41,318 bases of DNA from the sequence record LN881738.1; one strand, given 5' to 3'. How positions within the stretch are numbered: the first letter of the stretch is position 1; each line of letters opens with the position of its first letter. Shown one piece after another: positions 3,863 to 41,318 of the stretch. Both the position numbers and the translations under genes were made by a program. The notes under the pieces are model-generated. The model did no database searches and was not told the origin of the DNA. It saw only the letters and a list, made by a program, of their open reading frames with translations. The stretch is from Clostridium phage slur17.

Positions 3863-6800
3863 TTATAAAGCTCCTTTTCTTTTTGCTAAGAACAATATTT
3901 CATCAAAAAGATTTTCTATATCTTGTTGTCTATTATTTACAAAGTTTTCTATATTAAGTTTAATACCTGCTTGATTTTCATTAGCTTCATCAGCCTTATT
4001 ATTACTCATTATAGCTGTTTCTTTTCCAGCTTTAAAATCTGTACTTGCAACTATATTAGCTTGTATTTTAGACGTTTCAAAATTAACTGTAGCTTTTAAT
4101 TTACCTGTAAGTTCAGATATATTTTTCTCTATTTTTTCTTTCAAGCCTGGCGTTTCTACATCTATTCCAACGCCGACCCCTTTTACAAGATTTCTACCAA
4201 TTAAATCTCGCATGATTATGGAAGGTGAATGCACTCCAAAGCCGTCTCTAAATCCATCTATAACATTACTAGCAAAATCAAGGACTTGGTCTTTTAACCA
4301 GCCACCCATGCCCGTTATACCTTCCCATAAGCCTCTTACAACATCTTTCCCGATACTCATAATTTTACTAGGCAAATCTTTCAAAGCATCCTTAACAGCA
4401 TTTGCCATATTTTTTCCAGCTTCTCCAGCTTGTTTGACTAAGTTAGTCCCCCAGCTTATGACATTTGAAATGATATTGTCTAGCCATTCTCTAAATTTTC
4501 CTGGAAGCTGGCTAACAGTATTGTATATATTGTTAAAAAAGTTTTTCGCTGTTTCTAAAGCTTTTTTAGATAAATTAACTTCCCACTCCATGACTTTTTG
4601 CATTATATTAGTTAATTTTTCCCATATTTTGCCCGGAAGTTCTGAAAAGAATTTCATTATATTTTCTAAGAATTTGCTTCCTGTTTCTAATGCTTTTTGA
4701 ATTAGATTAGAACCCCATTCCGAAACTTTTCCCATGATATCTGTAAACTTTTCCCATAATTTTCCCGGAAGCTCCGAAATTGGAATTAATACATTGTCAA
4801 CAAATTGATTAAAAATATCTGTTGCCAATTGCTTTAAATTTTCGCCCCAGCCACTTATTGTTTCTACTACTGTATTAAACCATTCCGAAATTCTTTCGGG
4901 TAGCTCTGTAAAAAACTGTGTTATATTTTCCCAAATTGCACCAAAAAACTCTGAAACAGAAACCTTGAAATTTTCGCCCCAAGTTTGAATATTTTGCAAT
5001 ATGATACTAAAAAATTCCGAAATTTTTTCCGGAAGGCTTACAAACCATTCGACAATGCTATTTATTATTTCTGGTAATGTTTCTGTTGCCCAGGCGTACA
5101 GATTAGCTCCTAAATCAACGAAAAAACCAGCAATAGACCCGATTACAAAACCAATATTATATGGAATTTGTTTAAACCATTCGACAATATTATTTATTAT
5201 AGCTGGCATTGTCTCATTAAAGAAACTTGATATTTTTTCTCCTATTTTCCCACATTCTTCTTTTATCTTGTCGCCAATACCCGCAAACCATTTTGGTACT
5301 GTGCTAGTAAAAAAGTCTAAACCACTTTTTAATCCGCTTCCAATTGCATCTCCAATTTTTGACCCAGTCTCTTTGAACCAATTGCTAAGACCGCCGAAAA
5401 TCTCTACAGCTTTATCTTTTATACTTGAAAAACCTTGCTGTGCCTTATCTCCAAACTCTGTAAAAAAGTCTCCAGCTCCTGCAAATCCTTCACTTATTTT
5501 ATTTCCAAGACCACCAAAAAATCCACCTATATTTTCAATTCCTTCTTTGAATTTATCTTTTACTTTAGAGAAGAAATCACCAATAGAATTTTTTGCACTA
5601 GCTAGCCACTCATTTATATTTTTGTCTGTATCTCTTAGCCATTTTTCTATTCCACCAAAAAAACCACCAATGCCATTGAACCCTTTTTTTATACTTTCAG
5701 ATAATTTACTAGCTGAATCCCCAACTTTAGGGACTGTTCCTGTTACGAGTTCATCACTGACAAGTTCTAAGCCTTCAACAGAAGTTTTAACATCATCTAT
5801 GCCATCAGCATATTCTTCTAGTTCTCCAGCGTCCAGTTTGGCAGAACCAGAATCCAAAGAGGAACTTTTAGCAGATGAGTCTACATCCCCTCCACTTGCG
5901 CTAGAAGTATTAGCTTTTTCTTTTAGTTTCTCATATTCTTCTAACTTTTTCTTCAATCTATCAAGCTCTTTTTCTTGTGCTGGTATAATCTCTTTTAAGT
6001 TAATAGCTTCCTTTACAGCTTCCTGGATAGATTGCTTTTTAGAGTTAACTCCATTTAACAAACTATCTGCTAAACTCTGCCCTGCATCCTGCCAATGCGG
6101 GTTATATTCACTTAAAAGTTTTATAATTTCTTCTGAATTTTTTTGTAAAAGTAGCCTTCTCGCTTCATTTTGAATATTTGTCTCTTCTAAAAGTTCACTA
6201 AAATATTTTTCAATTTCTTCTTTTTGACTAGCATTAGACTCTTTTATCAATTCAAGTTTTTTACTTTCTGCTTCTTTTTGATTGTCGTACTCTTCTTTGT
6301 ACTGCTCTTTTTTGTTACTAGCTTCTGTTTTTATATTTTCAATCTGTTCTTTTAATCTGTTTTTTTCTTGTTGCCTTTGTTCATCTAATAATTTCTTCTG
6401 TCTATCTGATTGTGCTTCTGATATTTCTTTTTGTATTTTTTCTCGTTCTTTTTGATTTTTAGCTGTTGCTAGTTTCCTGTCAAGGTCGCTTATTTTTTCA
6501 TTGTACGCTTTCTCTTCTTCTGCTTTTTGTTCTTCTTCAATTTGCTTGTCTATGGCGTCAATTTGTTCTTGTATAGCATTAGTTTTCTCATTTGTTTCTG
6601 TATCTAAATACTTTAATTTCTCATTGTATTCTTTTTCATAGACCTTTAATCTATCATTTGATGCCTTTTCCTCAACTTTTAGTCTTTCATCAAGCGCTTT
6701 TATTTGTATATCTTTTTGACTTTCATATTGATTTTTTAATGCTGTAGTTATAGCCTCGCAAATTTTTTCAAATTTACTCTTGTTGGTCTCAAGATTTTTT

Positions 6801-32312: not shown

Positions 32313-32399
32313 CTTTTTCTATAAAAGAAGGTTGCTTTTTTTCTTAGCCTTCTTTTTTTTAAATTTTACTATAATATAAAAATATTACTGTAATATTAT

Positions 32400-32585
32400 A
32401 AAAATATTATTTTAGTATTGTATATACAATATTTTAGTATTTTTAATATAATATATTGGTATTGTAAAAGCAATATGTAAATATTGTATTTATATTATTT
32501 GAATATTGTAATTAACAATATTAATATATTGTTGCAATATTATAAAAACAATACTACAATATTATTATAATATTATAAATATAAT
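32400..32585. repeat. AATATTGT-type repeat array upstream of parA (centromere/operator-like)
   Basis: Many direct and inverted copies of AATATTGTA / TACAATATT, e.g. AGTATTGTATATACAATATT, GAATATTGTAATTAACAATATT. Confidence 0.55.
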
Positions 32586-32591
32586 AATGAG

Positions 32592-33410: not shown

Positions 33411-33743
33411 ATGCCAAGTTTCAACAGAGACCTTTTAGTTGATAAAGAAAAACCGATTTTGAAAAATGGAACAATCGTACAAAATGATTCTACAACTACA
33501 GACAATAAGACATTAAACATATATAATCTAGTTAATAAGAAAAGTAAAAAAGTGACTATGAGTGCAACGCTTGATGAGGAGCTTGTAAACAAATTAAAAT
33601 CTTTTTCTATTGATATGAACAGCGACGTTAGTAAATTATTAAGTGATATACTAACTCAAATTTTATCTGATGTCACTATAAAAGAAGAGAATTTAAATAT
33701 ATACAATGAGAGAAATAGAAGAAATAAGACTAAGAAAAAGTAA
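33411..33743 (+). CDS. Putative centromere-binding partition protein (ribbon-helix-helix-like)
   Basis: 110 aa; start codon directly follows the parA stop; VTMSATLDEELVNKLKSFSIDMNSDVSKLLSDIL is consistent with a beta-strand plus two helices; basic C-terminal tail. Confidence 0.45.
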   Translation: MPSFNRDLLVDKEKPILKNGTIVQNDSTTTDNKTLNIYNLVNKKSKKVTMSATLDEELVNKLKSFSIDMNSDVSKLLSDILTQILSDVTIKEENLNIYNERNRRNKTKKK

Positions 33744-33749
33744 ATAATA

Positions 33750-33860
33750 TTATATTTATATTGTTTAGATATTACTTAAATATTGTATATATAATATTTA
33801 AGTAATATTTTAATATTATTATTACAATATATTAATATTGTTTAAATAATATGTTTTAAC
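33750..33860. repeat. Second AATATTGT-type repeat array, downstream of the partition genes
   Basis: AAATATTGTATATATAATATTT and TACAATATATTAATATTGTTTAAA; same motif family as the array upstream of parA. Confidence 0.5.
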
Positions 33861-33877: not shown

Positions 33878-34168
33878 TTGGAAAAGATGAACGTTTATCT
33901 GCAAATTGGAAAAGAGTTATCTGAAAAAATGACTAAATCGGAGTTGAATAAGTTTTCGCAAGAAGTAACGAATTATCTACGATTCGCTGGACATGATAAT
34001 GATATGAAAATTAAACTATTTCAAACAATTATAGAAGCAATTGCTAGAAAAAGAGTAACATTGCCAGCTGACAATGAATTTACACAAGGAATAATGTTAA
34101 GTAACGAATTAGAGATGACAACGAATGTAGGATTTATAATCGAAGGATTAAGTTATCATAATAACTAA
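33878..34168 (+). CDS. Hypothetical protein
   Basis: 96-aa ORF; the likely true start is the ATG at 33887 (MNVYLQIGKE...); followed by a strong terminator. Confidence 0.45.
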   Translation: MEKMNVYLQIGKELSEKMTKSELNKFSQEVTNYLRFAGHDNDMKIKLFQTIIEAIARKRVTLPADNEFTQGIMLSNELEMTTNVGFIIEGLSYHNN

Positions 34169-34177
34169 ACATTAAAA

Positions 34178-34210
34178 AACAGTGTATTTATTGAATACAC
34201 TGTTTTTATT
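34178..34210 (+). terminator. Intrinsic terminator
   Basis: ACAGTGTATTTATTGAATACACTGT hairpin followed by TTTTTATTT. Confidence 0.55.
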
Positions 34211-34400
34211 TCCGCATAGTTAATCTAAAATTGGATATTATATTATTTCTATATAAATTAAATTGACATTTAAATCCCTCATAGTTAATCTTAAAATTCT
34301 TATTACAATATTATTTCTAAATAAATTAAAAAATATTTTAAATCCCTCGTAGTTAATCTTAAAAGCGATACTATATACATTAATAATAATACTCTTCTAC
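34205..34400. repeat. Three tandem imperfect direct repeats of about 66 bp
   Basis: Core TTTAAATCCCTC(A/G)TAGTTAATCTTAAAA recurs at about 34215, 34280 and 34348 with similar intervening sequence (ATTATTTCTA.ATAAATTAAA). Confidence 0.6.
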
Positions 34401-34871
34401 TTAATTTTCAATTACATTTTGCAATTCTTGTTTACAACTTTCAATGCCTTTTTGTAATTCTTCTAAAAAAACTGATGTGCTATCGTCTATATTTCTTTCA
34501 GCAATTTCTTCGAAATTTTCTTTATTGAATTTTTTATAACTATCCCAATCCAAATTTTCCCACTCATTTTCACACCAATTTTCAAATTCTTCATAATCGT
34601 TTACGTAACAAATTTCTCCAAGCATATCGTTTAAATGAGTTGGCGCTTGATTTAATGTGAAAATATTAATTTCTTTGTCATCACCTAAAAGTTTAGCCCA
34701 AGTTTGAACTGCTATCGCTTCAACTTTTCCTTGTATATCGATATAAATTTTTATATTATTAGTCTCTTTGATTAAACAACTTTCTTTAAAAGCTTTTATA
34801 GCTTCTTCCTCTATTTTATCTATATTCATATCTATAACTCTTAAAAATCTTCTAGCTTTTTGTTTATTCAT
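34401..34871 (-). CDS. Hypothetical acidic protein (third gene of uncharacterised operon)
   Basis: 156 aa, Trp/Glu-rich (ENWCENEWENLDWDSY); no motif recognised. Confidence 0.5.
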   Translation of the reverse strand: MNKQKARRFLRVIDMNIDKIEEEAIKAFKESCLIKETNNIKIYIDIQGKVEAIAVQTWAKLLGDDKEINIFTLNQAPTHLNDMLGEICYVNDYEEFENWCENEWENLDWDSYKKFNKENFEEIAERNIDDSTSVFLEELQKGIESCKQELQNVIEN

Positions 34872-34890
34872 TTTTTATATCCTCCATTTT

Positions 34891-35397
34891 TTAGTTGTTT
34901 TTATACATAACAGTTCTTTCGCTCTTTTCAATTTCTGTAAGATACTCTAAAAATTCTTTAATTTCTTGTTTGTTTATGCCTGTAAATTCGTGTCTAATTT
35001 CGCATTTTTCAACGCGTGTAGAATATTTCTCTTCTAATTTATAAAATCCAGGTCTTACACTAGCTATAAGGTCACTTTCTACATTTTTGCTGCATAAGCT
35101 ATTTACATATATTAAAATGTTTTCTATATTTTCTATGTCTACTTTGTCGCCTTTTGAATAATAAAAATTAAATCTCAATCTTATTCCTATGCTACTGTTA
35201 ATTTCACCATGCCCCCACGTTTCAATGTTTAAACTTTTTCCAACTGTTTCTTTAACGATTCCCACGTGACTGTTTGCACAATCTTTAAGACTTATATCAA
35301 ATATATCATTGTTGATTTTATTAATCTCTTTTTCTATCATTTCAACATTCTCTTTATTAACTTTTAAATTTAATATTGTACTAAAATCTATATTCAT
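34891..35397 (-). CDS. Hypothetical protein (second gene of uncharacterised operon)
   Basis: 168 aa; no motif recognised. Confidence 0.5.
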   Translation of the reverse strand: MNIDFSTILNLKVNKENVEMIEKEINKINNDIFDISLKDCANSHVGIVKETVGKSLNIETWGHGEINSSIGIRLRFNFYYSKGDKVDIENIENILIYVNSLCSKNVESDLIASVRPGFYKLEEKYSTRVEKCEIRHEFTGINKQEIKEFLEYLTEIEKSERTVMYKNN

Positions 35398-35475
35398 ACT
35401 TCAATCCTCCATTTATTTTATATATTAAAATTATAGCATTCGACGGTGAACTATATTTGTACCAATCCAAAATTT

Positions 35476-36306
35476 TTAACACTCTACACCATCTCTAAAT
35501 ATTTGGTATGCAATTTCTATTTTTCTTTCAGCACTTTCTATTTTTCTATAGTTTTCAATCTGCTTCTTTTTAATGTCTGCAAATCCATTTTTATAAAATT
35601 GTGCATTTTTTTGTATTAATGTTTCTATTATGTATTTTTTAGCTTTCTCTATATATTCTGTGCTAGTAGCTTGTTTTACTGCGTCGTCAAATATTTCAAC
35701 TATTTCAAGTACATTTTCTTTTATTTCATTAGACCAATTATCATTAAAATTTATTTCTTTAGCTATTTTTTTAGCTTCTTCATAGCTTATACTACCTTCA
35801 ACTTTTCTAAGTTTATGAGACGCTTGAGTTTCTCCTTTTAAAAATTTTAAATTTCCAATTTCTTCTGTAAATTGAGACTCTCGAAAAATCTGGTTTATTT
35901 GAAACGCTTTTTGATTTAAAGAATTATATTTTAAAACATTTCTAAAATTATCTATAAAGAACTTAGCATCCTCTATGTTGCTTATTGCTTCTCTTATTCT
36001 TTCAAATTTTCTTTTACATCTTTCTGTCATTTCTTCTATACTCATATCTTTGATTTTGTAGTCTTCATTTTTTATTCTTTCTATTTTACTTTTTTCTAGT
36101 TCGTTAGTTAAATTTAAAATGTCTGTTCTTATATCATTAGCCCAAATAATTTGTTTTTCTGACCCTTTTAATTCTTTCATTTTTATATCCCCCTTTTTAT
36201 TTAAGAAGGATAAGCAAAGACTAAATTGTACTTTATAATCTACATCATTATATTTTTCTTTAATTTCTCTTGCTATTTTATGTGCTTCTTTAAATAAAGT
36301 TTTCAT
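35476..36306 (-). CDS. Hypothetical protein (first gene of uncharacterised operon)
   Basis: 276 aa, largely helical and Lys/Glu-rich; N-terminus MKTLFKEAHKIAREIKEKYNDVDYKVQFSLCLSFL; no catalytic motif recognised. Confidence 0.5.
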   Translation of the reverse strand: MKTLFKEAHKIAREIKEKYNDVDYKVQFSLCLSFLNKKGDIKMKELKGSEKQIIWANDIRTDILNLTNELEKSKIERIKNEDYKIKDMSIEEMTERCKRKFERIREAISNIEDAKFFIDNFRNVLKYNSLNQKAFQINQIFRESQFTEEIGNLKFLKGETQASHKLRKVEGSISYEEAKKIAKEINFNDNWSNEIKENVLEIVEIFDDAVKQATSTEYIEKAKKYIIETLIQKNAQFYKNGFADIKKKQIENYRKIESAERKIEIAYQIFRDGVEC

Positions 36307-36484
36307 TCTTTGCTTACCCCCTTGTTTTATTTGTTAATTATATTATAATCTATATGAATATCTAAGTCAACACTTTTTCAAAGTTTTTTCTTTGATTTCC
36401 AAAAATATAACTTTGATTAACATAGATTATTCTTTTACTTTTAATTTTTTTATGTTATTATATAAATAAGAGAGGTGTGAAAAA

Positions 36485-36697
36485 ATGACATGGAAAAATG
36501 AAATCAAAAGTATTCTTGTGAAAGAAAATATCAGCATGAATGAGTTAAATAATTTAATGAATGAATATAATAATAAGAATAATACAGTAGAGAATTTAAG
36601 ACAAAAAATAAATAATGAGACTATGAAGTATAGTGAAATCTTGACTATTGCTAATCTGATAGGATACGAAGTTGTTTGGAAGAAGAAAGAAAAGTAG
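36485..36697 (+). CDS. Small XRE-like HTH regulator divergent from the uncharacterised operon
   Basis: 70 aa; SD GAGAGGTG; ISMNELNNLMN ... YSEILTIANLIGYEV resembles an XRE HTH. The overlapping minus-strand ORF 36427-36720 is rejected. Confidence 0.45.
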   Translation: MTWKNEIKSILVKENISMNELNNLMNEYNNKNNTVENLRQKINNETMKYSEILTIANLIGYEVVWKKKEK

Positions 36698-36699
36698 AC

Positions 36700-36745
36700 A
36701 TAAAAAAAAGAAGGTAACAACTAACTCTAGTTGCTACCTTCTAAT
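36700..36745. terminator. Bidirectional terminator between the HTH gene and the endolysin gene
   Basis: About 15-bp stem AGAAGGTAACAACTA / TAGTTGCTACCTTCT with one mismatch; T-run on the minus strand (plus A8 at 36704-36711). Confidence 0.5.
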
Positions 36746-37901: not shown

Positions 37902-39752
37902 TTAAATTGCTTGATACATTGCGTAAGTAAAATAACCGTCTCCGCTTTGGTCATATCTAGCCCCGCCTAATGTTATAAACTTTTTGGTTTCATCTTTATA
38001 GCCATTTCCTCTGCCTGCTTCTATACTTGTATTGTAGCCATGATACACAATTCCATAATAACTATTACCTTTATATCCATAACAATAAGTTATGCCTACA
38101 TAAGTACTATTAATAGTTTGCGGTGGGTTATCATCAGCATCCGCAAAGCCTGTGATAGTTCTAAAATAAGCAGTACTTCCTTGTATTGTGTTCTGTATAT
38201 TATTTTTGTAAGTTTGTAAAGTTGAATTTTTGCTAATTAATATGCTTTTAGCTGTATTACTTTTAACCATTCTGTTAAGTGCAAGTCCTGTAAGTGTTAT
38301 TTTGGTCATAGCCGTTGAGCTATTTGCAATTATGCCCATTGCTGTTGTATTATTTACAAAAACACTTATAGACGTATCGTTATTTGCAACTGTCGACATA
38401 GCTTGTGCGTTATTTGCAATTATGCCCATTGCTGTTGTATTATTTGCAATAGTAACGTTATTTTCTGAAATAGTGAGCATAGCATTGAAAGCAGTAGAGT
38501 TATTTGCTATCTTAGTAAAAGCAGTAGTTTTATTTACTAAAATATTTATAGCTGTTGTACTTTTCATAAAAGCATTTAATGACACTGTTTTACTGAAAAT
38601 ACTTTCTATAATTCCCACTCGGTCACCAACTTTATTTACTATAATAGAATTATTTGCAAAAGTTGCCATTGCGATTGAACTTTCTAAAATTGCATCCGAA
38701 ATTTTTATTTTTTCCTCAATATCTCGTTGTGATATATTACGTGTGGTTTCCATACCATCATAATTTTTTACTGCATTTTTTAAAATCGGGAATATTTCTT
38801 CATTATAAGTTATTGCCATAATTTGACCTTTACCAGAAGCAATATTTGATTTTATTGTATTTATATAATTTAAAGAAGTTTGTAAATTATACTTCATTTC
38901 TAATAAATTAGGGATTATTTTTTCAACAGTAACATTATTAGTTAATATTTTATTTATGCTATTTTGGTTTTGCACTAATACTTTTGTAGCTTCTAAGTCA
39001 TTAAATATTTCCATTACGGAGTTTTCGTTACTTGAAATTTGTGTCATAGCTTCATCACTATTTATAATCGCATCCCTAATCACATTATTTTTTAAAATTG
39101 CTCTAATGACTGGTGACTCTGTTGTAACTCTTAAAATATATTGACCTAATAAATCCATAGCATTTGAACTTGCTACAACTGCGTCCATGCTTGATTTACA
39201 CATAGTTAAAGCTACTATTGCATTACTATTATTAAGTATTGCATTAGTAGCTTCCACATTTGCTAATATTTCTTCTATAGTTGTAAGATTTTCTAAATCA
39301 GTATTATCTAAGCTAAAAGTAGAATTAAACCATGCTCCTATAGTTGACTTTTCTTGTTCTCTTGTAACATATCTATCATACCCTGCTTTAAATTTTTCCT
39401 CTAATGAATTATAATGCTCTATAGTCATTTCTTTTACTACATTATCAGCATTTCCTAAGCTAAATATATCTGTTCTATAAAAGGCATTTAATTGTTCCCC
39501 TAGCTTAGTGCTTTTATTAAATAAATTATCAATATCAGTTTCTGAAAAAGCTGTGTAAACTGTTTCTCTTATTCCTCTATCAGAAAATAAATATAAACTA
39601 TTTAAATATAATTCTTCCCATATCCTAGCATTTCCAATAAACAGCACATAACTATCTAATCCATTTAGTTTTATGTCTTGCAAATAACTTAAAAAATTTA
39701 GTGGCTCGCCTTGCAAGTCACTATTCACTTTGTATGTCTCCGCCCAACTCAT
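37902..39752 (-). CDS. Tail fibre / receptor-binding protein with tandem 19-20 aa Asn/Thr/Ala repeats
   Basis: 616 aa; repeats such as NNTTAMGIIANNAQAMSTVANNDTSISVF; Gly/Tyr-rich C-terminal globular region; start overlaps the upstream fibre stop by 1 nt. Confidence 0.6.
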   Translation of the reverse strand: MSWAETYKVNSDLQGEPLNFLSYLQDIKLNGLDSYVLFIGNARIWEELYLNSLYLFSDRGIRETVYTAFSETDIDNLFNKSTKLGEQLNAFYRTDIFSLGNADNVVKEMTIEHYNSLEEKFKAGYDRYVTREQEKSTIGAWFNSTFSLDNTDLENLTTIEEILANVEATNAILNNSNAIVALTMCKSSMDAVVASSNAMDLLGQYILRVTTESPVIRAILKNNVIRDAIINSDEAMTQISSNENSVMEIFNDLEATKVLVQNQNSINKILTNNVTVEKIIPNLLEMKYNLQTSLNYINTIKSNIASGKGQIMAITYNEEIFPILKNAVKNYDGMETTRNISQRDIEEKIKISDAILESSIAMATFANNSIIVNKVGDRVGIIESIFSKTVSLNAFMKSTTAINILVNKTTAFTKIANNSTAFNAMLTISENNVTIANNTTAMGIIANNAQAMSTVANNDTSISVFVNNTTAMGIIANSSTAMTKITLTGLALNRMVKSNTAKSILISKNSTLQTYKNNIQNTIQGSTAYFRTITGFADADDNPPQTINSTYVGITYCYGYKGNSYYGIVYHGYNTSIEAGRGNGYKDETKKFITLGGARYDQSGDGYFTYAMYQAI

Positions 39753-41318
39753 TAACTCACCTCTTCTTTTATTTCTTCTATTTGATTACCTTTAAAAGTC
39801 GTTTTTACTTTACTTACTAATACATTATCTATATATTTTTCGTCTACTATAGTCCCATCTGCATTAAATTTAGTTATAGTTTTACTAACCGAGTCTAAAA
39901 TATCTGTTATAGAGCCGTCTGAATTAAAAGTCGTGCTTTTTTTAATGTAATCTAACTCTTTCGGTTTTTCTAATAACTCATTCCATGTAACTTTTCCTTT
40001 TGACGCTTTCCCCGTGTCTTCTCCATTTATAAACCAATTACCGTTTTCGCCGATTGCTGGAGTATAACCTTGTTCCCCTCTAAGCTCTGTATATATATAT
40101 TCCGTTTGTCCTTCTTCTCTAATACCTAGCTGACTTCCATTCCAATTAAATTCTAATTTATTTCCTGTCGCTCCTTTTAGATTTGTATAGCTATAGTCCT
40201 CTTGACCTTCTATTCTAACGCCTAGCTCCGTACCATCCCAACTAAATTCAATGCTATCGCCTTTTTGACCTTTCAAATCTGTATAAGTATAATTCTCCTG
40301 TCCTTCTATCCTTACACCTAGTCGTGTGCCATCCCATGCAAATTCGATATTGTCACCTTTGAGGTCTATATACTTATAATCTAATTCGTATTGTTGCCTA
40401 ACGCCTAACTGTGTGCCATCCCAATTAAATTCTAGGTTCTTGCCGTCCACGCCCGCTAGAGAACCTAAGTCTTCCCATTTAGTTTGATATATATAAATAT
40501 TTCTCCCTATAATCCAGCAATCTCCGATAGTAGGGTCTAATGGTAAGTTATCTATAGAATCTAATTTTCCTAAAATCCTCAAAGATGCCCCTCTAGCTGG
40601 TTTTTGGGTATCTATATTATTAATCCACCAGTTTCCATTTTCTCCTATTGTTGGAGTATAACCCTGCTCCCCTTTCAATTCTGTATAACTATAATTTTCT
40701 TGACCTTCTATCTTTATACCTAATCGTGTGCCATTCCAATTAAATTCAATACTATCACCTTTATCGCCTTTTTGACCTTTTAAATCTGTATAAGTATAAT
40801 TCTCCTGTCCTTCTATCCTTATACCTAGTCGCGTGCCATCCCAATTAAATTCTAAGCCATCTCCATTTTCACCCTTTATTTTTATGTCAGGAACTTTGAC
40901 CCAATTAGTGTTGTCCCAAACATATAAATCAATTTGGTTTTCTATTGTTGCGCTTTTTACAAAGTAAGCATCACTTAAAGTTGGATTGACTGGAAGTGCT
41001 GATATATTATCTAAACTTCCTTTTATTTCTATTCCTACCCCTTTTAACTCTTCTTTTGTGGGGATTGCATTAATAGCGTCTGTAACTTCTGTCTGCATAG
41101 TTTCTTTAGCTGTAGTTACTTCGCTAATCATAGTATTTTTAGCTGTTGTAACTTCCGCTTTAACTGTGTTAACTTCGTCTATTAATGTTGTTTTAGTAGT
41201 ATTAACATCACTAATCATGCTGTTTTTAGCGTCTGTAACTTCTGTAACTTTAGAGTCGAAAGTTTCTTTTATACTATTAAATTCTTCGACCCTTTTACCT
41301 TCTGCGATTTCTAATTCT
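39752..41318 (-). CDS. Tail fibre protein with six ~30-aa tandem repeats; N-terminus lies beyond the window end
   Basis: The frame is open from 41318 down to the stop at 39752; the ORF track starts it at an internal Met (41218). Contains coiled-coil heptad-like units (EVTDAKNSMISDVNTTK) and six copies of (L/I)EFNWDGTRLGIRIEGQENYTYTDLKG. Confidence 0.6.
   Translation of the reverse strand, partial: ELEIAEGKRVEEFNSIKETFDSKVTEVTDAKNSMISDVNTTKTTLIDEVNTVKAEVTTAKNTMISEVTTAKETMQTEVTDAINAIPTKEELKGVGIEIKGSLDNISALPVNPTLSDAYFVKSATIENQIDLYVWDNTNWVKVPDIKIKGENGDGLEFNWDGTRLGIRIEGQENYTYTDLKGQKGDKGDSIEFNWNGTRLGIKIEGQENYSYTELKGEQGYTPTIGENGNWWINNIDTQKPARGASLRILGKLDSIDNLPLDPTIGDCWIIGRNIYIYQTKWEDLGSLAGVDGKNLEFNWDGTQLGVRQQYELDYKYIDLKGDNIEFAWDGTRLGVRIEGQENYTYTDLKGQKGDSIEFSWDGTELGVRIEGQEDYSYTNLKGATGNKLEFNWNGSQLGIREEGQTEYIYTELRGEQGYTPAIGENGNWFINGEDTGKASKGKVTWNELLEKPKELDYIKKSTTFNSDGSITDILDSVSKTITKFNADGTIVDEKYIDNVLVSKVKTTFKGNQIEEIKEEVS

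What the first reader, a model, noticed from the sequence alone, without database searches (positions are those of the whole stretch)
34401..36720. Uncharacterised three-gene operon with its own divergent HTH regulator, between the lysis cassette and the partition region
Three co-oriented ORFs (276, 168 and 156 aa) carry no motif I can assign to any phage structural, replication or lysis function. They are transcribed divergently from a 70-aa XRE-like HTH gene across a 178-bp AT-rich promoter region. The cassette is bracketed by a bidirectional terminator next to the endolysin gene on one side and three tandem 66-bp repeats on the other. This insulated layout at a classic moron position (after lysis genes) is what prophage-encoded defence, superinfection-exclusion or toxin/immunity cassettes look like. 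If any system here is undescribed, this is my leading candidate, but the call is by context only.
Basis: inference. Interest (0 to 1): 0.65.

Follow-up and report, generated by a model that had tools for sequence, protein, structure and literature searches.

The report
Published phage anti-CRISPR (AcrIB2) locus
The "uncharacterised operon" is the accessory cassette of a Clostridioides difficile phiCD38-2-type phage whose third gene is the published anti-CRISPR AcrIB2, so it is counter-defence rather than defence, although its two upstream genes, its small divergent gene and a CRISPR-like mini-array behind it have not been studied.

Summary
The geometry is real: three co-oriented minus-strand ORFs of 276, 168 and 156 aa, a divergent 70-aa ORF across a 178-bp gap (20% GC), a terminator beside the endolysin gene, and a 65-68-bp repeat at the far end.

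The window is a C. difficile phiCD38-2-type phage. This stretch is 100% identical to phiCD38-2, phiCD146 and CDSH1.

The 156-aa gene is phiCD38-2 gp27, which is AcrIB2. [quoted passage not shown] 2023). [quoted passage not shown] The cassette is therefore anti-defence, and its core is already known.

New here:
- gp25 carries a segment resembling the N-terminal half of AcrIE7 (hhalign 93%).
- gp25 and gp26 always travel as an adjacent pair.
- gp24 and its promoter region form a portable module that sits in front of different cargo genes.
- The "66-bp repeats" are a CRISPR-derived mini-array with 3 repeats and 2 conserved pseudo-spacers, co-oriented with acrIB2.

No defence or toxin-antitoxin signal was found. 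The functions of gp24, gp25, gp26 and the array remain inferred.

The parts
36709..36742 (-). Intrinsic terminator of the endolysin/late operon. It insulates the cassette from late transcription.
   Evidence: 15-bp stem followed by TTTTTTTT on the minus strand. The plus-strand tail is not T-rich (sequence).
36485..36697 (+). gp24, a 70-aa basic protein (pI 8.9). It is a candidate regulator (Aca-like) of the cassette promoter. An HTH fold is plausible but unproven.
   Evidence: ORF; phiCD38-2 gp24. All 9 homologues hit DUF6471 below Pfam's threshold. hhalign against XRE sequences is collinear but weak. Homologues occur only in Clostridioides. It occurs upstream of two different cargo sets.
36307..36484 (.). 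Divergent control region. The cassette promoter TTGACT-17-TATAAT lies at 36370-36342(-). A gp24 promoter-like site lies at 36434-36461(+). Candidate operators are the inverted repeats TCAAAGTT/AACTTTGA (36378-36416) and ATAATCTAT/ATAGATTAT (36345-36359 and 36416-36430).
   Evidence: The region is almost invariant between phages whose first cargo gene differs. Identity stops a few bases downstream of the -10 box, just before the ribosome-binding site.
35476..36306 (-). gp25, 276 aa, basic (pI 8.8), all-helical. It has an N-terminal helical hairpin (about residues 1-45), an AcrIE7-like segment (residues 47-123, with the motifs GSEKQxxWA and DAKFFIDN) and a Clostridioides-specific C-terminal domain. 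It is a candidate second anti-CRISPR.
34891..35397 (-). gp26, 168 aa, a near-orphan alpha/beta protein with a ferredoxin-like fold. It is always adjacent to gp25. Function unknown.
34401..34871 (-). acrIB2 (phiCD38-2 gp27), 156 aa, acidic (pI 4.5). A validated inhibitor of C. difficile type I-B CRISPR interference.
   Evidence: 100% DNA identity to phiCD38-2; annotated as gp27. It matches the split phiCDHM13 gp28|gp29 genes and the split PHROGs families. D92, E94 and E95 are as described in the paper. Experiments are in PMC10732046.
34383..34411 (-). Promoter-like site (TTGAAA-17-TATTAT) in the 3' end of acrIB2. It would start transcription about 10 nt before the first CRISPR-like repeat.
   Evidence: 10 of 12 positions. 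Both hexamers and the spacing are kept in phiCD211 even though its AcrIB2 is only 50% identical.
34203..34366 (-). CRISPR-derived mini-array. R1 is 34364-34336, spacer A 34335-34297, R2 34296-34268, spacer B 34267-34232, and the degenerate terminal repeat R3 34231-34203.
   Evidence: The repeats match the C. difficile repeat at 21-23 of 29 positions, and natural repeat variants at up to 25 of 29 for mini-array repeats of related phages, 22-24 for this window's. Rfam CRISPR-DR14 scores 23.8 bits, below its threshold of 45. The homologous feature is annotated rpt_family=CRISPR in phiCD211.
34175..34207 (.). Symmetrical (bidirectional) terminator shared by the cassette/array transcript (-) and the convergent gp28 gene (+).
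   Evidence: Fold energy -14.3 kcal/mol, z-score -4.6. Sequence.
33878..34168 (+). gp28, 96 aa, unknown function. This convergent gene is found next to acrIB2 and the array in every locus examined.
   Evidence: Muzyukina et al. also note a conserved gene downstream of acrIB2 homologues.

Best explanation
This is the anti-CRISPR (anti-defence) locus of a phiCD38-2-type C. difficile plasmid-prophage.

Shown:
- The last gene encodes AcrIB2. [quoted passage not shown]
- According to the same paper, the locus is highly transcribed in the lysogen, where the prophage itself reduces CRISPR self-targeting about 10-fold.

Inferred:
1. The cassette gp25-gp26-acrIB2 is driven by the near-consensus promoter in the 178-bp gap. 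That promoter is controlled by the divergently encoded small protein gp24, acting like an anti-CRISPR-associated (Aca) repressor on the inverted repeats there.
2. gp25 is a second inhibitor. Its GSEKQxxWA...DAKFFIDN segment resembles the ssDNA-binding half of AcrIE7, which shields the R-loop non-target strand from Cas3.
3. gp26 is a partner or a further anti-defence protein.
4. The CRISPR-like mini-array behind acrIB2 is transcribed with acrIB2, or from its own promoter, up to the shared terminator. It would yield repeat-containing RNA that engages host Cas proteins as a decoy or crRNA-like RNA.
For: Identity and literature:
- The stretch is 100% identical to phiCD38-2, phiCD146 and CDSH1, and the 156-aa gene is annotated gp27.
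- It is the fused homologue of phiCDHM13 gp28-gp29.
- D92, E94 and E95, pI 4.5 and net charge -15 match the paper's description.
- The paper provides the self-targeting and conjugation assays, the lysogen effect, the Cas3 pull-down, the statement about two unknown upstream genes in the same direction, and the report of high transcription in lysogens.

Operon layout:
- The gaps between the genes are 78 and 19 bp, with no internal terminator.

gp24 module:
- gp24 and the gap are conserved in front of either gp25/gp26 or a phiCDHM13-gp26/AP2 cargo set.
- Inverted repeats lie between the two promoters.

gp25:
- AcrIE7 sequences are the top named PDB hits (E 0.01-0.08).
- hhalign gives 93% probability (E 3e-7) for the short-homologue family and 84% for the gp25 family alignment.
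- In controls, 30 shuffles reached at most 0.7% and the reversed sequence 0.1%.
- AcrIE7's essential ssDNA-binding residues K6 and R49 lie inside the two shared motifs.
- gp25 is basic.

Pairing:
- gp25 and gp26 are adjacent in all 12 sources that carry either one, down to 54-57% identity.

Array:
- The three best matches to the host repeat in the whole 41-kb window are these three sites. They lie on the same strand at the canonical 65-68-nt period.
- The terminal repeat is degenerate, as in genuine arrays.
- A promoter-like site lies upstream and a terminator downstream.
- Array, acrIB2 and gp28 co-occur in all 30+ loci.
Against: - Only AcrIB2 has experimental support. gp24, gp25, gp26 and the array are untested.
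- The gp25-AcrIE7 similarity covers only about 50 residues and rests mostly on the GSEKQxxWA motif. Without it the score falls to 16, E 0.06.
It was checked only against residues 4-27 printed by HMMER and against residue numbers K6, K17, R49 and R95 in the paper.
- gp24 has no significant HTH hit, is divergent rather than co-transcribed like classical aca genes, and is absent from the large-phage versions of the locus.
- The array repeats fall below Rfam's threshold.
- Single-site identity to the host repeat is only marginally above shuffles (23 against a maximum of 22).
- The spacers resemble each other, are conserved between phages, and have no detectable target.
- The primary RNA-seq paper could not be read.
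Confidence: 0.75

Rival explanations
1. One reading: gp25 and gp26 form a prophage-encoded defence or superinfection-exclusion pair that merely shares a hotspot and promoter with acrIB2.
For: Both are expressed from the prophage according to the paper. They form a strictly co-occurring adjacent pair, as two-component systems do. They sit in a variable cargo slot. No known function is assigned.
Against: There are no PADLOC hits. Neither protein has an enzymatic, NTPase, nuclease or membrane domain. They are co-transcribed with a validated anti-defence gene. gp25 carries an AcrIE7-like segment.
Confidence: 0.1
2. gp25 and gp26 are lysogenic-conversion or episome-maintenance factors. They might, for example, underlie the known effects of the phiCD38-2 prophage on toxin production and cwpV expression, or support the plasmid lifestyle. 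Under this view they are unrelated to CRISPR.
For: High expression in the lysogen is reported. The cassette lies next to the ParA partition module. A distant gp25 N-terminal homologue lies at the same lysis/partition junction next to a ParM-like gene in an unrelated element. The effects of phiCD38-2 on host toxin and cwpV are from my own knowledge of Sekulovic et al. 2011 and 2015, which I did not read here.
Against: The gp25/gp26 pair also occurs in the roughly 130-kb phiCD211-type phages, again directly upstream of acrIB2. In phiCD418-type loci without gp29/ParA, and in several ParA-carrying phiCDHM13-type phages, the same slot holds a different cargo set. No DNA-partition or regulator domains were found.
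Confidence: 0.08
3. For the repeat block only: the CRISPR-like mini-array is a decaying relic of a captured array, or a DNA-level protein-binding site, and has no RNA function.
For: The repeats have diverged by 20-25% from the host repeat and fall below Rfam's threshold. The canonical leader is absent. The spacers are related to one another and have no targets. The number of units varies from 2 to 4 through unit loss or gain. The repeats are predicted to be unstructured.
Against: The array is retained next to acrIB2 in all 17 distinct array versions from siphophages, myophages and large phages. A promoter-like site is conserved upstream. Conservation is non-uniform: the 3' 21 nt of the repeat and the first ~17 nt of the spacer are nearly invariant (3-4 variable positions), while 11 of 18 positions in the 3' half of the spacer vary. 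That is not what neutral decay predicts.
Confidence: 0.4

Closest known systems
AcrIB2 anti-CRISPR locus of phage phiCD38-2 (Muzyukina et al. 2023, mSphere, PMC10732046)
   Same: The DNA is identical. The 156-aa gene is AcrIB2 itself. The paper already describes the two unknown upstream genes, the position after the lysis genes, the conserved downstream gene, and the CRISPR array next to the phiCD211 homologue.
   Different: In the sections I read, the paper does not test gp25, gp26 or gp24. It does not report the AcrIE7-like segment of gp25 or mention a CRISPR-like mini-array in phiCD38-2 itself. It also does not describe gp24 plus its promoter as a shared module.
Classical acr-aca operons (for example Pseudomonas acrIF/acrIE-aca1)
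   Same: A strong promoter drives one or more small anti-CRISPR genes. A small DNA-binding regulator is encoded at the locus, with inverted repeats in the promoter. The cargo is variable behind a conserved regulatory part.
   Different: The putative regulator here is transcribed divergently rather than lying downstream in the same operon. Its HTH fold and its DNA binding are unproven. It matches no described Aca family.
AcrIE7 (P. aeruginosa; binds R-loop ssDNA and blocks Cas3 cleavage; PMC12002350)
   Same: gp25 residues 47-123 align with AcrIE7 residues 2-51. The shared motifs GSEKQxxWA and DA(K/R)xxIDN contain AcrIE7's essential residues K6 and R49. Both proteins are helical and basic.
   Different: gp25 is 276 aa with extra N- and C-terminal domains and an insertion of about 25 residues. 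The C-terminal half of AcrIE7 has no counterpart. The similarity is at motif level only. The target system would be I-B rather than I-E or I-C.
RNA anti-CRISPRs (Racrs) and viral crRNA-like regulatory RNAs (PMC10651486; bioRxiv 10.1101/2024.10.29.618823)
   Same: A phage carries CRISPR-repeat-like sequences next to acr genes, with its own promoter-like site and a terminator. The pseudo-spacers have no cleavable targets, and the handle plus seed are conserved.
   Different: Expression, processing and Cas binding are all untested. There are three repeats with two spacers rather than a solitary repeat. No complementary host promoter was found. Neither paper's main text mentions C. difficile.
Cas-homologue anti-CRISPRs (AcrIB3 as a Cas5 mimic, AcrIB4 as a Cas8b C-terminal homologue, AcrIF25 as a Cas7-contact mimic; review PMC13131331)

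Membership tests
AcrIB2 (anti-CRISPR against type I-B) | Sequence identity with the validated phiCD38-2 protein | tested here: met
   100% DNA identity over 2.7 kb. The CDS is gp27. D92, E94 and E95 and the split-gene homologues are as in the paper.
AcrIB2 (anti-CRISPR against type I-B) | Inhibits type I-B CRISPR interference in C. difficile | not testable with these tools
   Shown experimentally for the identical gene in PMC10732046.
acr-aca operon | HTH-type Aca regulator encoded with the acr genes | tested here: inconclusive
   gp24 has only a sub-threshold DUF6471 hit, no PDB sequence hit, and a weak hhalign match to XRE sequences. It is divergent rather than co-transcribed.
acr-aca operon | Inverted-repeat operators in the acr promoter | tested here: inconclusive
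   Inverted repeats lie at 36378-36416 and at 36345-36359/36416-36430. The region is too conserved to give covariation evidence, and binding is untested.
AcrIE7 family (for gp25) | Significant similarity across the whole protein of about 106 aa | tested here: not met
   Only AcrIE7 residues 2-51 align. hmmsearch E-values are 0.01-0.08 over 24 residues.
AcrIE7 family (for gp25) | Conservation of ssDNA-binding residues K6 and R49 | tested here: inconclusive
   The K6 equivalent (K51, within GSEKQ) is invariant in the short-homologue family alignment. R49 aligns with F118, and R119 is adjacent.
AcrIE7 family (for gp25) | Seven-helix bundle fold | tested here: inconclusive
CRISPR array | Regularly spaced direct repeats matching the host repeat family | tested here: inconclusive
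   There are three repeats at 68 and 65 nt spacing, matching the canonical repeat at 21-23 of 29 positions and natural variants at 22-24 (25 for repeats of related phages). Rfam CRISPR-DR14 scores 23.8 bits against a threshold of 45.
CRISPR array | Unique spacers of foreign origin | tested here: not met
   The spacers resemble each other and are conserved in order across phages. They have no match other than the homologous arrays in 1.37 Mb of C. difficile phage DNA.
Racr / viral crRNA-like RNA | Transcribed repeat RNA that binds Cas proteins and lowers interference | not testable with these tools
   Only indirect signs are available: a promoter-like site and terminator, adjacency to an acr gene, and a conserved handle plus seed.
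Racr / viral crRNA-like RNA | For the regulatory type: partial complementarity to a host cas or toxin promoter next to a PAM | tested here: not met
   An exact search for CCW plus 16 nt of spacer B/C gave no Clostridioides hit among the 100,044 species-representative genomes of that collection. Mismatched targets and non-canonical PAMs were not tested.
Cas7/RAMP-like protein (for gp26) | Fold match to Cas7 supported by independent methods | tested here: inconclusive
Known anti-phage defence systems (PADLOC-DB) | Match of any cassette protein to a defence-system model | tested here: not met
   There were 0 families at E up to 0.1 for gp24-gp29.
XRE-family HTH (for gp24) | Match to the Pfam XRE-type HTH families above threshold | tested here: not met
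   No XRE-type HTH family was listed for any of the 9 homologues at E up to 5.

The most novel reading that the evidence does not exclude
The locus may be a multi-layered weapon against type I-B CRISPR:
- gp25 is an AcrIE7-like protein that shields R-loop ssDNA.
- gp26 is an RRM/Cas7-like partner.
- AcrIB2 blocks Cas3.
- A phage-encoded crRNA-like RNA from the mini-array has an invariant 5' handle and seed. It would load into host Cascade as a decoy or, with Cas3 blocked, as a silencing guide.
- gp24 and its promoter form a new, divergently arranged Aca-type control module shared between different cargo sets.
Probability: 0.2. Interest if true: 0.7.

Novelty: already known. Interest (0 to 1): 0.35.

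Why it matters
C. difficile phages are being developed for therapy, and the host's very active type I-B CRISPR system is a main barrier. [quoted passage not shown] If gp25, gp26 or the mini-array RNA also inhibit CRISPR, the locus would supply further tools for engineering therapeutic phages and for controlling I-B-based genome editing. It would also extend RNA-based anti-CRISPRs to Clostridia. As it stands, the finding mainly re-identifies a published locus and marks which parts remain untested.

Tried and rejected
- Defence system: no PADLOC hits.
- Standard annotation: Pfam and NCBIfam found nothing above threshold, and the PHROGs families are all of unknown function.
- Toxin-antitoxin: the phage's type I toxin-antitoxin is gp33, elsewhere in the genome.
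- gp24 as an HTH protein: no PDB profile hit and a weak hhalign match.
- gp24 and gp28 as paralogues: my visual impression was not supported by BLASTP, although a natural gp28-gp24 chimera exists.
- The array as a functional targeting array: the spacers match nothing but homologous arrays in 1.37 Mb of C. difficile phage DNA. There is no PAM-plus-seed hit in Clostridioides representative genomes. The canonical leader is absent.
- Independent support for the AcrIE7 link from PHROGs: AcrIE7 hits no PHROGs family.
- Papers not held: Sekulovic & Fortier 2015 (RNA-seq) and Garneau 2018 (phiCD211).
- The CDHS-1 RNA-seq paper gives no gene-level data for these genes.
- Terminal redundancy of the window: none found.
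Full report
**Observation**

- 35476-36306(-), 276 aa
- 34891-35397(-), 168 aa
- 34401-34871(-), 156 aa
- a divergent 70-aa ORF at 36485-36697(+)

The divergent gap 36307-36484 is 178 bp with 20% GC, and each gene has a strong ribosome-binding site. The best promoter match in the region, TTGACT-17-TATAAT (11 of 12 positions), lies at 36370-36342 on the minus strand and points into the 276-aa gene. A terminator hairpin at 36742-36709 follows the endolysin stop. Tandem Repeats Finder reports 2.3 copies of a 68-bp unit at 34215-34364.

Three details need correcting. The terminator beside the endolysin has a T-tract on the minus strand only. The symmetrical terminator is at 34175-34207, on the other side of the cassette. 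The repeat is not three full 66-bp units.

**Identity**

The 2.7-kb stretch is 100% identical to the C. difficile siphophages phiCD38-2, phiCD146 and CDSH1, and 99.6% identical to phiCD111. In the phiCD38-2 record the genes are gp24 (70 aa), gp25, gp26 and gp27. They lie between endolysin gp23 and gp28/gp29/ParA gp30. Pfam, NCBIfam and PADLOC give nothing above threshold. PHROGs assigns only families of unknown function, and gp27 matches two "split" families.

**What is already published**

Muzyukina et al. 2023 (PMC10732046) searched for anti-CRISPR loci in C. difficile phages. They tested the phiCD38-2 gene that is the fused homologue of phiCDHM13 gp28 and gp29 and named it AcrIB2. Their findings:
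- It restores growth in a CRISPR self-targeting assay and prevents loss of DNA around the targeted site.
- It acts on the interference-proficient "partial" cas operon.
- It co-purifies with Cas3.
- It is proposed to be an acidic DNA mimic with conserved D92, E94 and E95.

The window's 156-aa protein has D92, E94 and E95, pI 4.5 and net charge -15. The BLAST match to phiCDHM13 gp28|gp29 covers exactly this gene. [quoted passage not shown] It reports high transcription in the lysogen and a conserved unknown gene downstream.

The third gene is therefore AcrIB2, and the cassette is the published anti-CRISPR locus. The lysogen itself reduces self-targeting about 10-fold. I could not read the primary RNA-seq paper.

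**Synteny and co-occurrence**

I compared five annotated phages and 29 IMG/VR loci recovered with the repeat pattern.
- acrIB2, the repeat block and the convergent gp28-like gene occur together in every locus where the flank is present.
- The slot upstream of acrIB2 is variable. It holds gp25+gp26 in the phiCD38-2 type, the AR1074-1 type and the roughly 130-kb AR1086-1/LIBA6276 type. In phiCDHM13 and phiCD418 it holds a phiCDHM13-gp26-like gene plus an AP2-domain gene. Other small unknown genes also occur there.
- gp25 and gp26 always occur as an adjacent pair, in 12 of 12 sources. Protein searches also find diverged pairs on the same contigs, down to 57% and 54% identity with adjacent locus tags.
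- gp24 occurs with both cargo types and is absent from the large-phage loci.
- Aligning the gp24-to-cargo intergenic regions shows near-invariance up to the -10 box. Identity is then lost abruptly before the ribosome-binding site when the cargo differs. gp24 and its promoter region therefore behave as a portable control module.
- Inverted repeats lie between the two divergent promoters: TCAAAGTT/AACTTTGA and ATAATCTAT/ATAGATTAT.
- A natural variant fuses the gp28 N-terminus to the gp24 C-terminus and lacks the whole cassette. The cassette is therefore dispensable.

**gp24**

Homologues exist only in Clostridioides. All nine tested members hit Pfam DUF6471 below threshold, with a best E-value of 1.4e-4, and none hits an XRE-type HTH family. 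A profile search of PDB sequences finds nothing. An HTH fold is plausible but not shown.

**gp25**

Profile searches of PDB sequences put AcrIE7 at or near the top. It ranks first with E 0.08. In a second search it scores E 0.01, just behind a release factor 2 match that looks spurious. The aligned text is [24 protein letters not shown].

hhalign of the family alignments against AcrIE7 gives 93% probability (E 3e-7) and 84% probability (E 7.5e-6), aligning gp25 residues 47-123 with AcrIE7 residues 2-51. Both motifs, GSEKQxxWA and DA(K/R)xxIDN, are in register. Thirty shuffles reached at most 0.7% and the reversed sequence 0.1%.

AcrIE7 binds the displaced ssDNA of the R-loop and blocks Cas3 cleavage. 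Its essential residues K6 and R49 lie in those two motifs.

Caveats:
- The AcrIE7 sequence came from my memory. It was checked only against the residues printed and the residue numbers.
- Without the first motif the score is not significant.
- Only half of AcrIE7 aligns.
- R49 aligns one residue off the basic residue in gp25.
- PHROGs gives no independent link.

I read this as a shared nucleic-acid-binding segment. It makes gp25 a reasonable candidate second Acr, not a member of the AcrIE7 family.

**gp26**

gp26 is a near-orphan, with 7 homologues among 5.8 billion clusters and 5 among 1.8 billion representatives. The model (pLDDT 82, pTM 0.81, from 9 sequences) is a ferredoxin-like alpha/beta fold.

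**The repeat block**

Read on the minus strand, the same strand as acrIB2, the block has this order:
1. acrIB2 stop codon
2. a 36-nt stretch
3. R1, TTTTAAGATTAACTACGAGGGATTTAAAA
4. a 39-nt spacer
5. R2, TTTTAAGATTAACTATGAGGGATTTAAAT
6. a 36-nt spacer
7. the degenerate R3, ATTTTAGATTAACTATGCGGAAATAAAAA
8. the terminator hairpin

The genuine C. difficile repeat, recovered from 111 prophage loci, is GTTTTATATTAACTA(T/A)GTGGTATGTAAAT with a 65-67-nt period. The three sites are the three best matches to it in the entire window, at 23, 21 and 21 of 29 positions. They lie on one strand at 68- and 65-nt spacing. Single-site identity is only just above shuffles, which reach 22.

The window's repeats match natural repeat variants at 22-24 of 29 positions, and a repeat of the related phiCD211 array at 25. 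R3 resembles natural terminal degenerate repeats. Rfam's CRISPR-DR14 scores 23.8 bits against a threshold of 45. The homologous block in phiCD211 is annotated as CRISPR, and Muzyukina et al. mention it only for that phage. Hargreaves et al. 2014 found no arrays in propagated phages of the phiC2-like group; the passages I read report none for phiCD38-2.

It is not an ordinary array:
- Across 17 distinct versions with 2 to 4 repeats, the same three related pseudo-spacers recur in order.
- They match only homologous arrays in 1.37 Mb of C. difficile phage DNA.
- An exact search for a PAM plus a 16-nt seed found no Clostridioides site.
- The canonical leader is missing.

Conservation is uneven. 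The 3' 21 nt of the repeat and the first ~17 nt of the spacer are nearly invariant, while 11 of 18 positions in the 3' half of the spacer vary. A promoter-like TTGAAA-17-TATTAT site at 34411-34383 is conserved even in phiCD211.

This pattern fits the handle-plus-seed logic of RNA anti-CRISPRs and viral crRNA-like RNAs, which are known to cluster with acr genes. Expression and Cas binding are untested, and a decaying relic or a DNA-level site remains a serious alternative.

**Conclusion**

The finding is real as a structure, but it is the published AcrIB2 anti-CRISPR locus. It is counter-defence, not a new defence or toxin system. The remaining value is a set of testable leads:
- gp25 as an AcrIE7-like protein
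- the obligate gp25/gp26 pair
- gp24 and its promoter as a shared control module
- the CRISPR-derived mini-array co-oriented with acrIB2

Noticed in passing
window 32371-32588 and 33745-33852: AT-rich tandem repeats (22/33-bp and 33/11-bp units) flank the ParA-gp29 pair. gp29 (33411-33743) has an Arc/ribbon-helix-helix-like PHROGs hit (E 6e-5). These look like the centromere sites and centromere-binding protein of the plasmid-prophage partition system.
   Followed up: no
L154 5001-5207 (GCA_027277065.1 contig); proteins P0126 and P0127: A 68-aa in-frame chimera of the gp28 N-terminus and the gp24 C-terminus replaces gp28, the array, acrIB2, gp26, gp25 and gp24 in a related plasmid-prophage. 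This is a natural deletion of the whole cassette. Two other unknown genes (163 and 188 aa) lie between it and the amidase.
   Followed up: partly
window, about 3 kb to the left of the finding, near parA (phiCD38-2 gp33): Peltier et al. 2020 report a type I toxin-antitoxin (gp33) in the 1.9-kb parA region that phiCD38-2 apparently acquired from a C. difficile plasmid. It is not part of this cassette.
   Followed up: no
L041 (ERZ26858507 contig, 41 kb), gene at 5001-5678: A distant homologue of the gp25 N-terminal module lies just after holin, amidase and a ParM-like (ALP_N) gene in an unrelated element. This is the same lysis/partition junction as here. Another homologue lies among ParB_N, PAPS-reductase-like and SNF2 genes.
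   Followed up: partly
L002 3357-3506 (phiCD211): A 49-aa ORF annotated "helicase" lies next to the gp28 homologue and the mini-array in phiCD211. Muzyukina et al. describe it as a C-terminal Cas3 fragment. This hints that the block was captured from a host CRISPR-cas locus.
   Followed up: no
L043-L153 (IMG/VR C. difficile prophage loci): Many prophages carry genuine multi-spacer CRISPR arrays with the canonical repeat and a conserved leader (CACTGCAAATTT...ATTTATTTTGGG). These are clearly distinct from the mini-array behind acrIB2.
   Followed up: partly
window 40173-40360 and 38307-38450: There is a 96-bp tandem duplication (2 copies, 74% identical). There are also roughly five copies of a degenerate 30-bp repeat inside the 616-aa tail-fibre ORF (37902-39752).
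   Followed up: no
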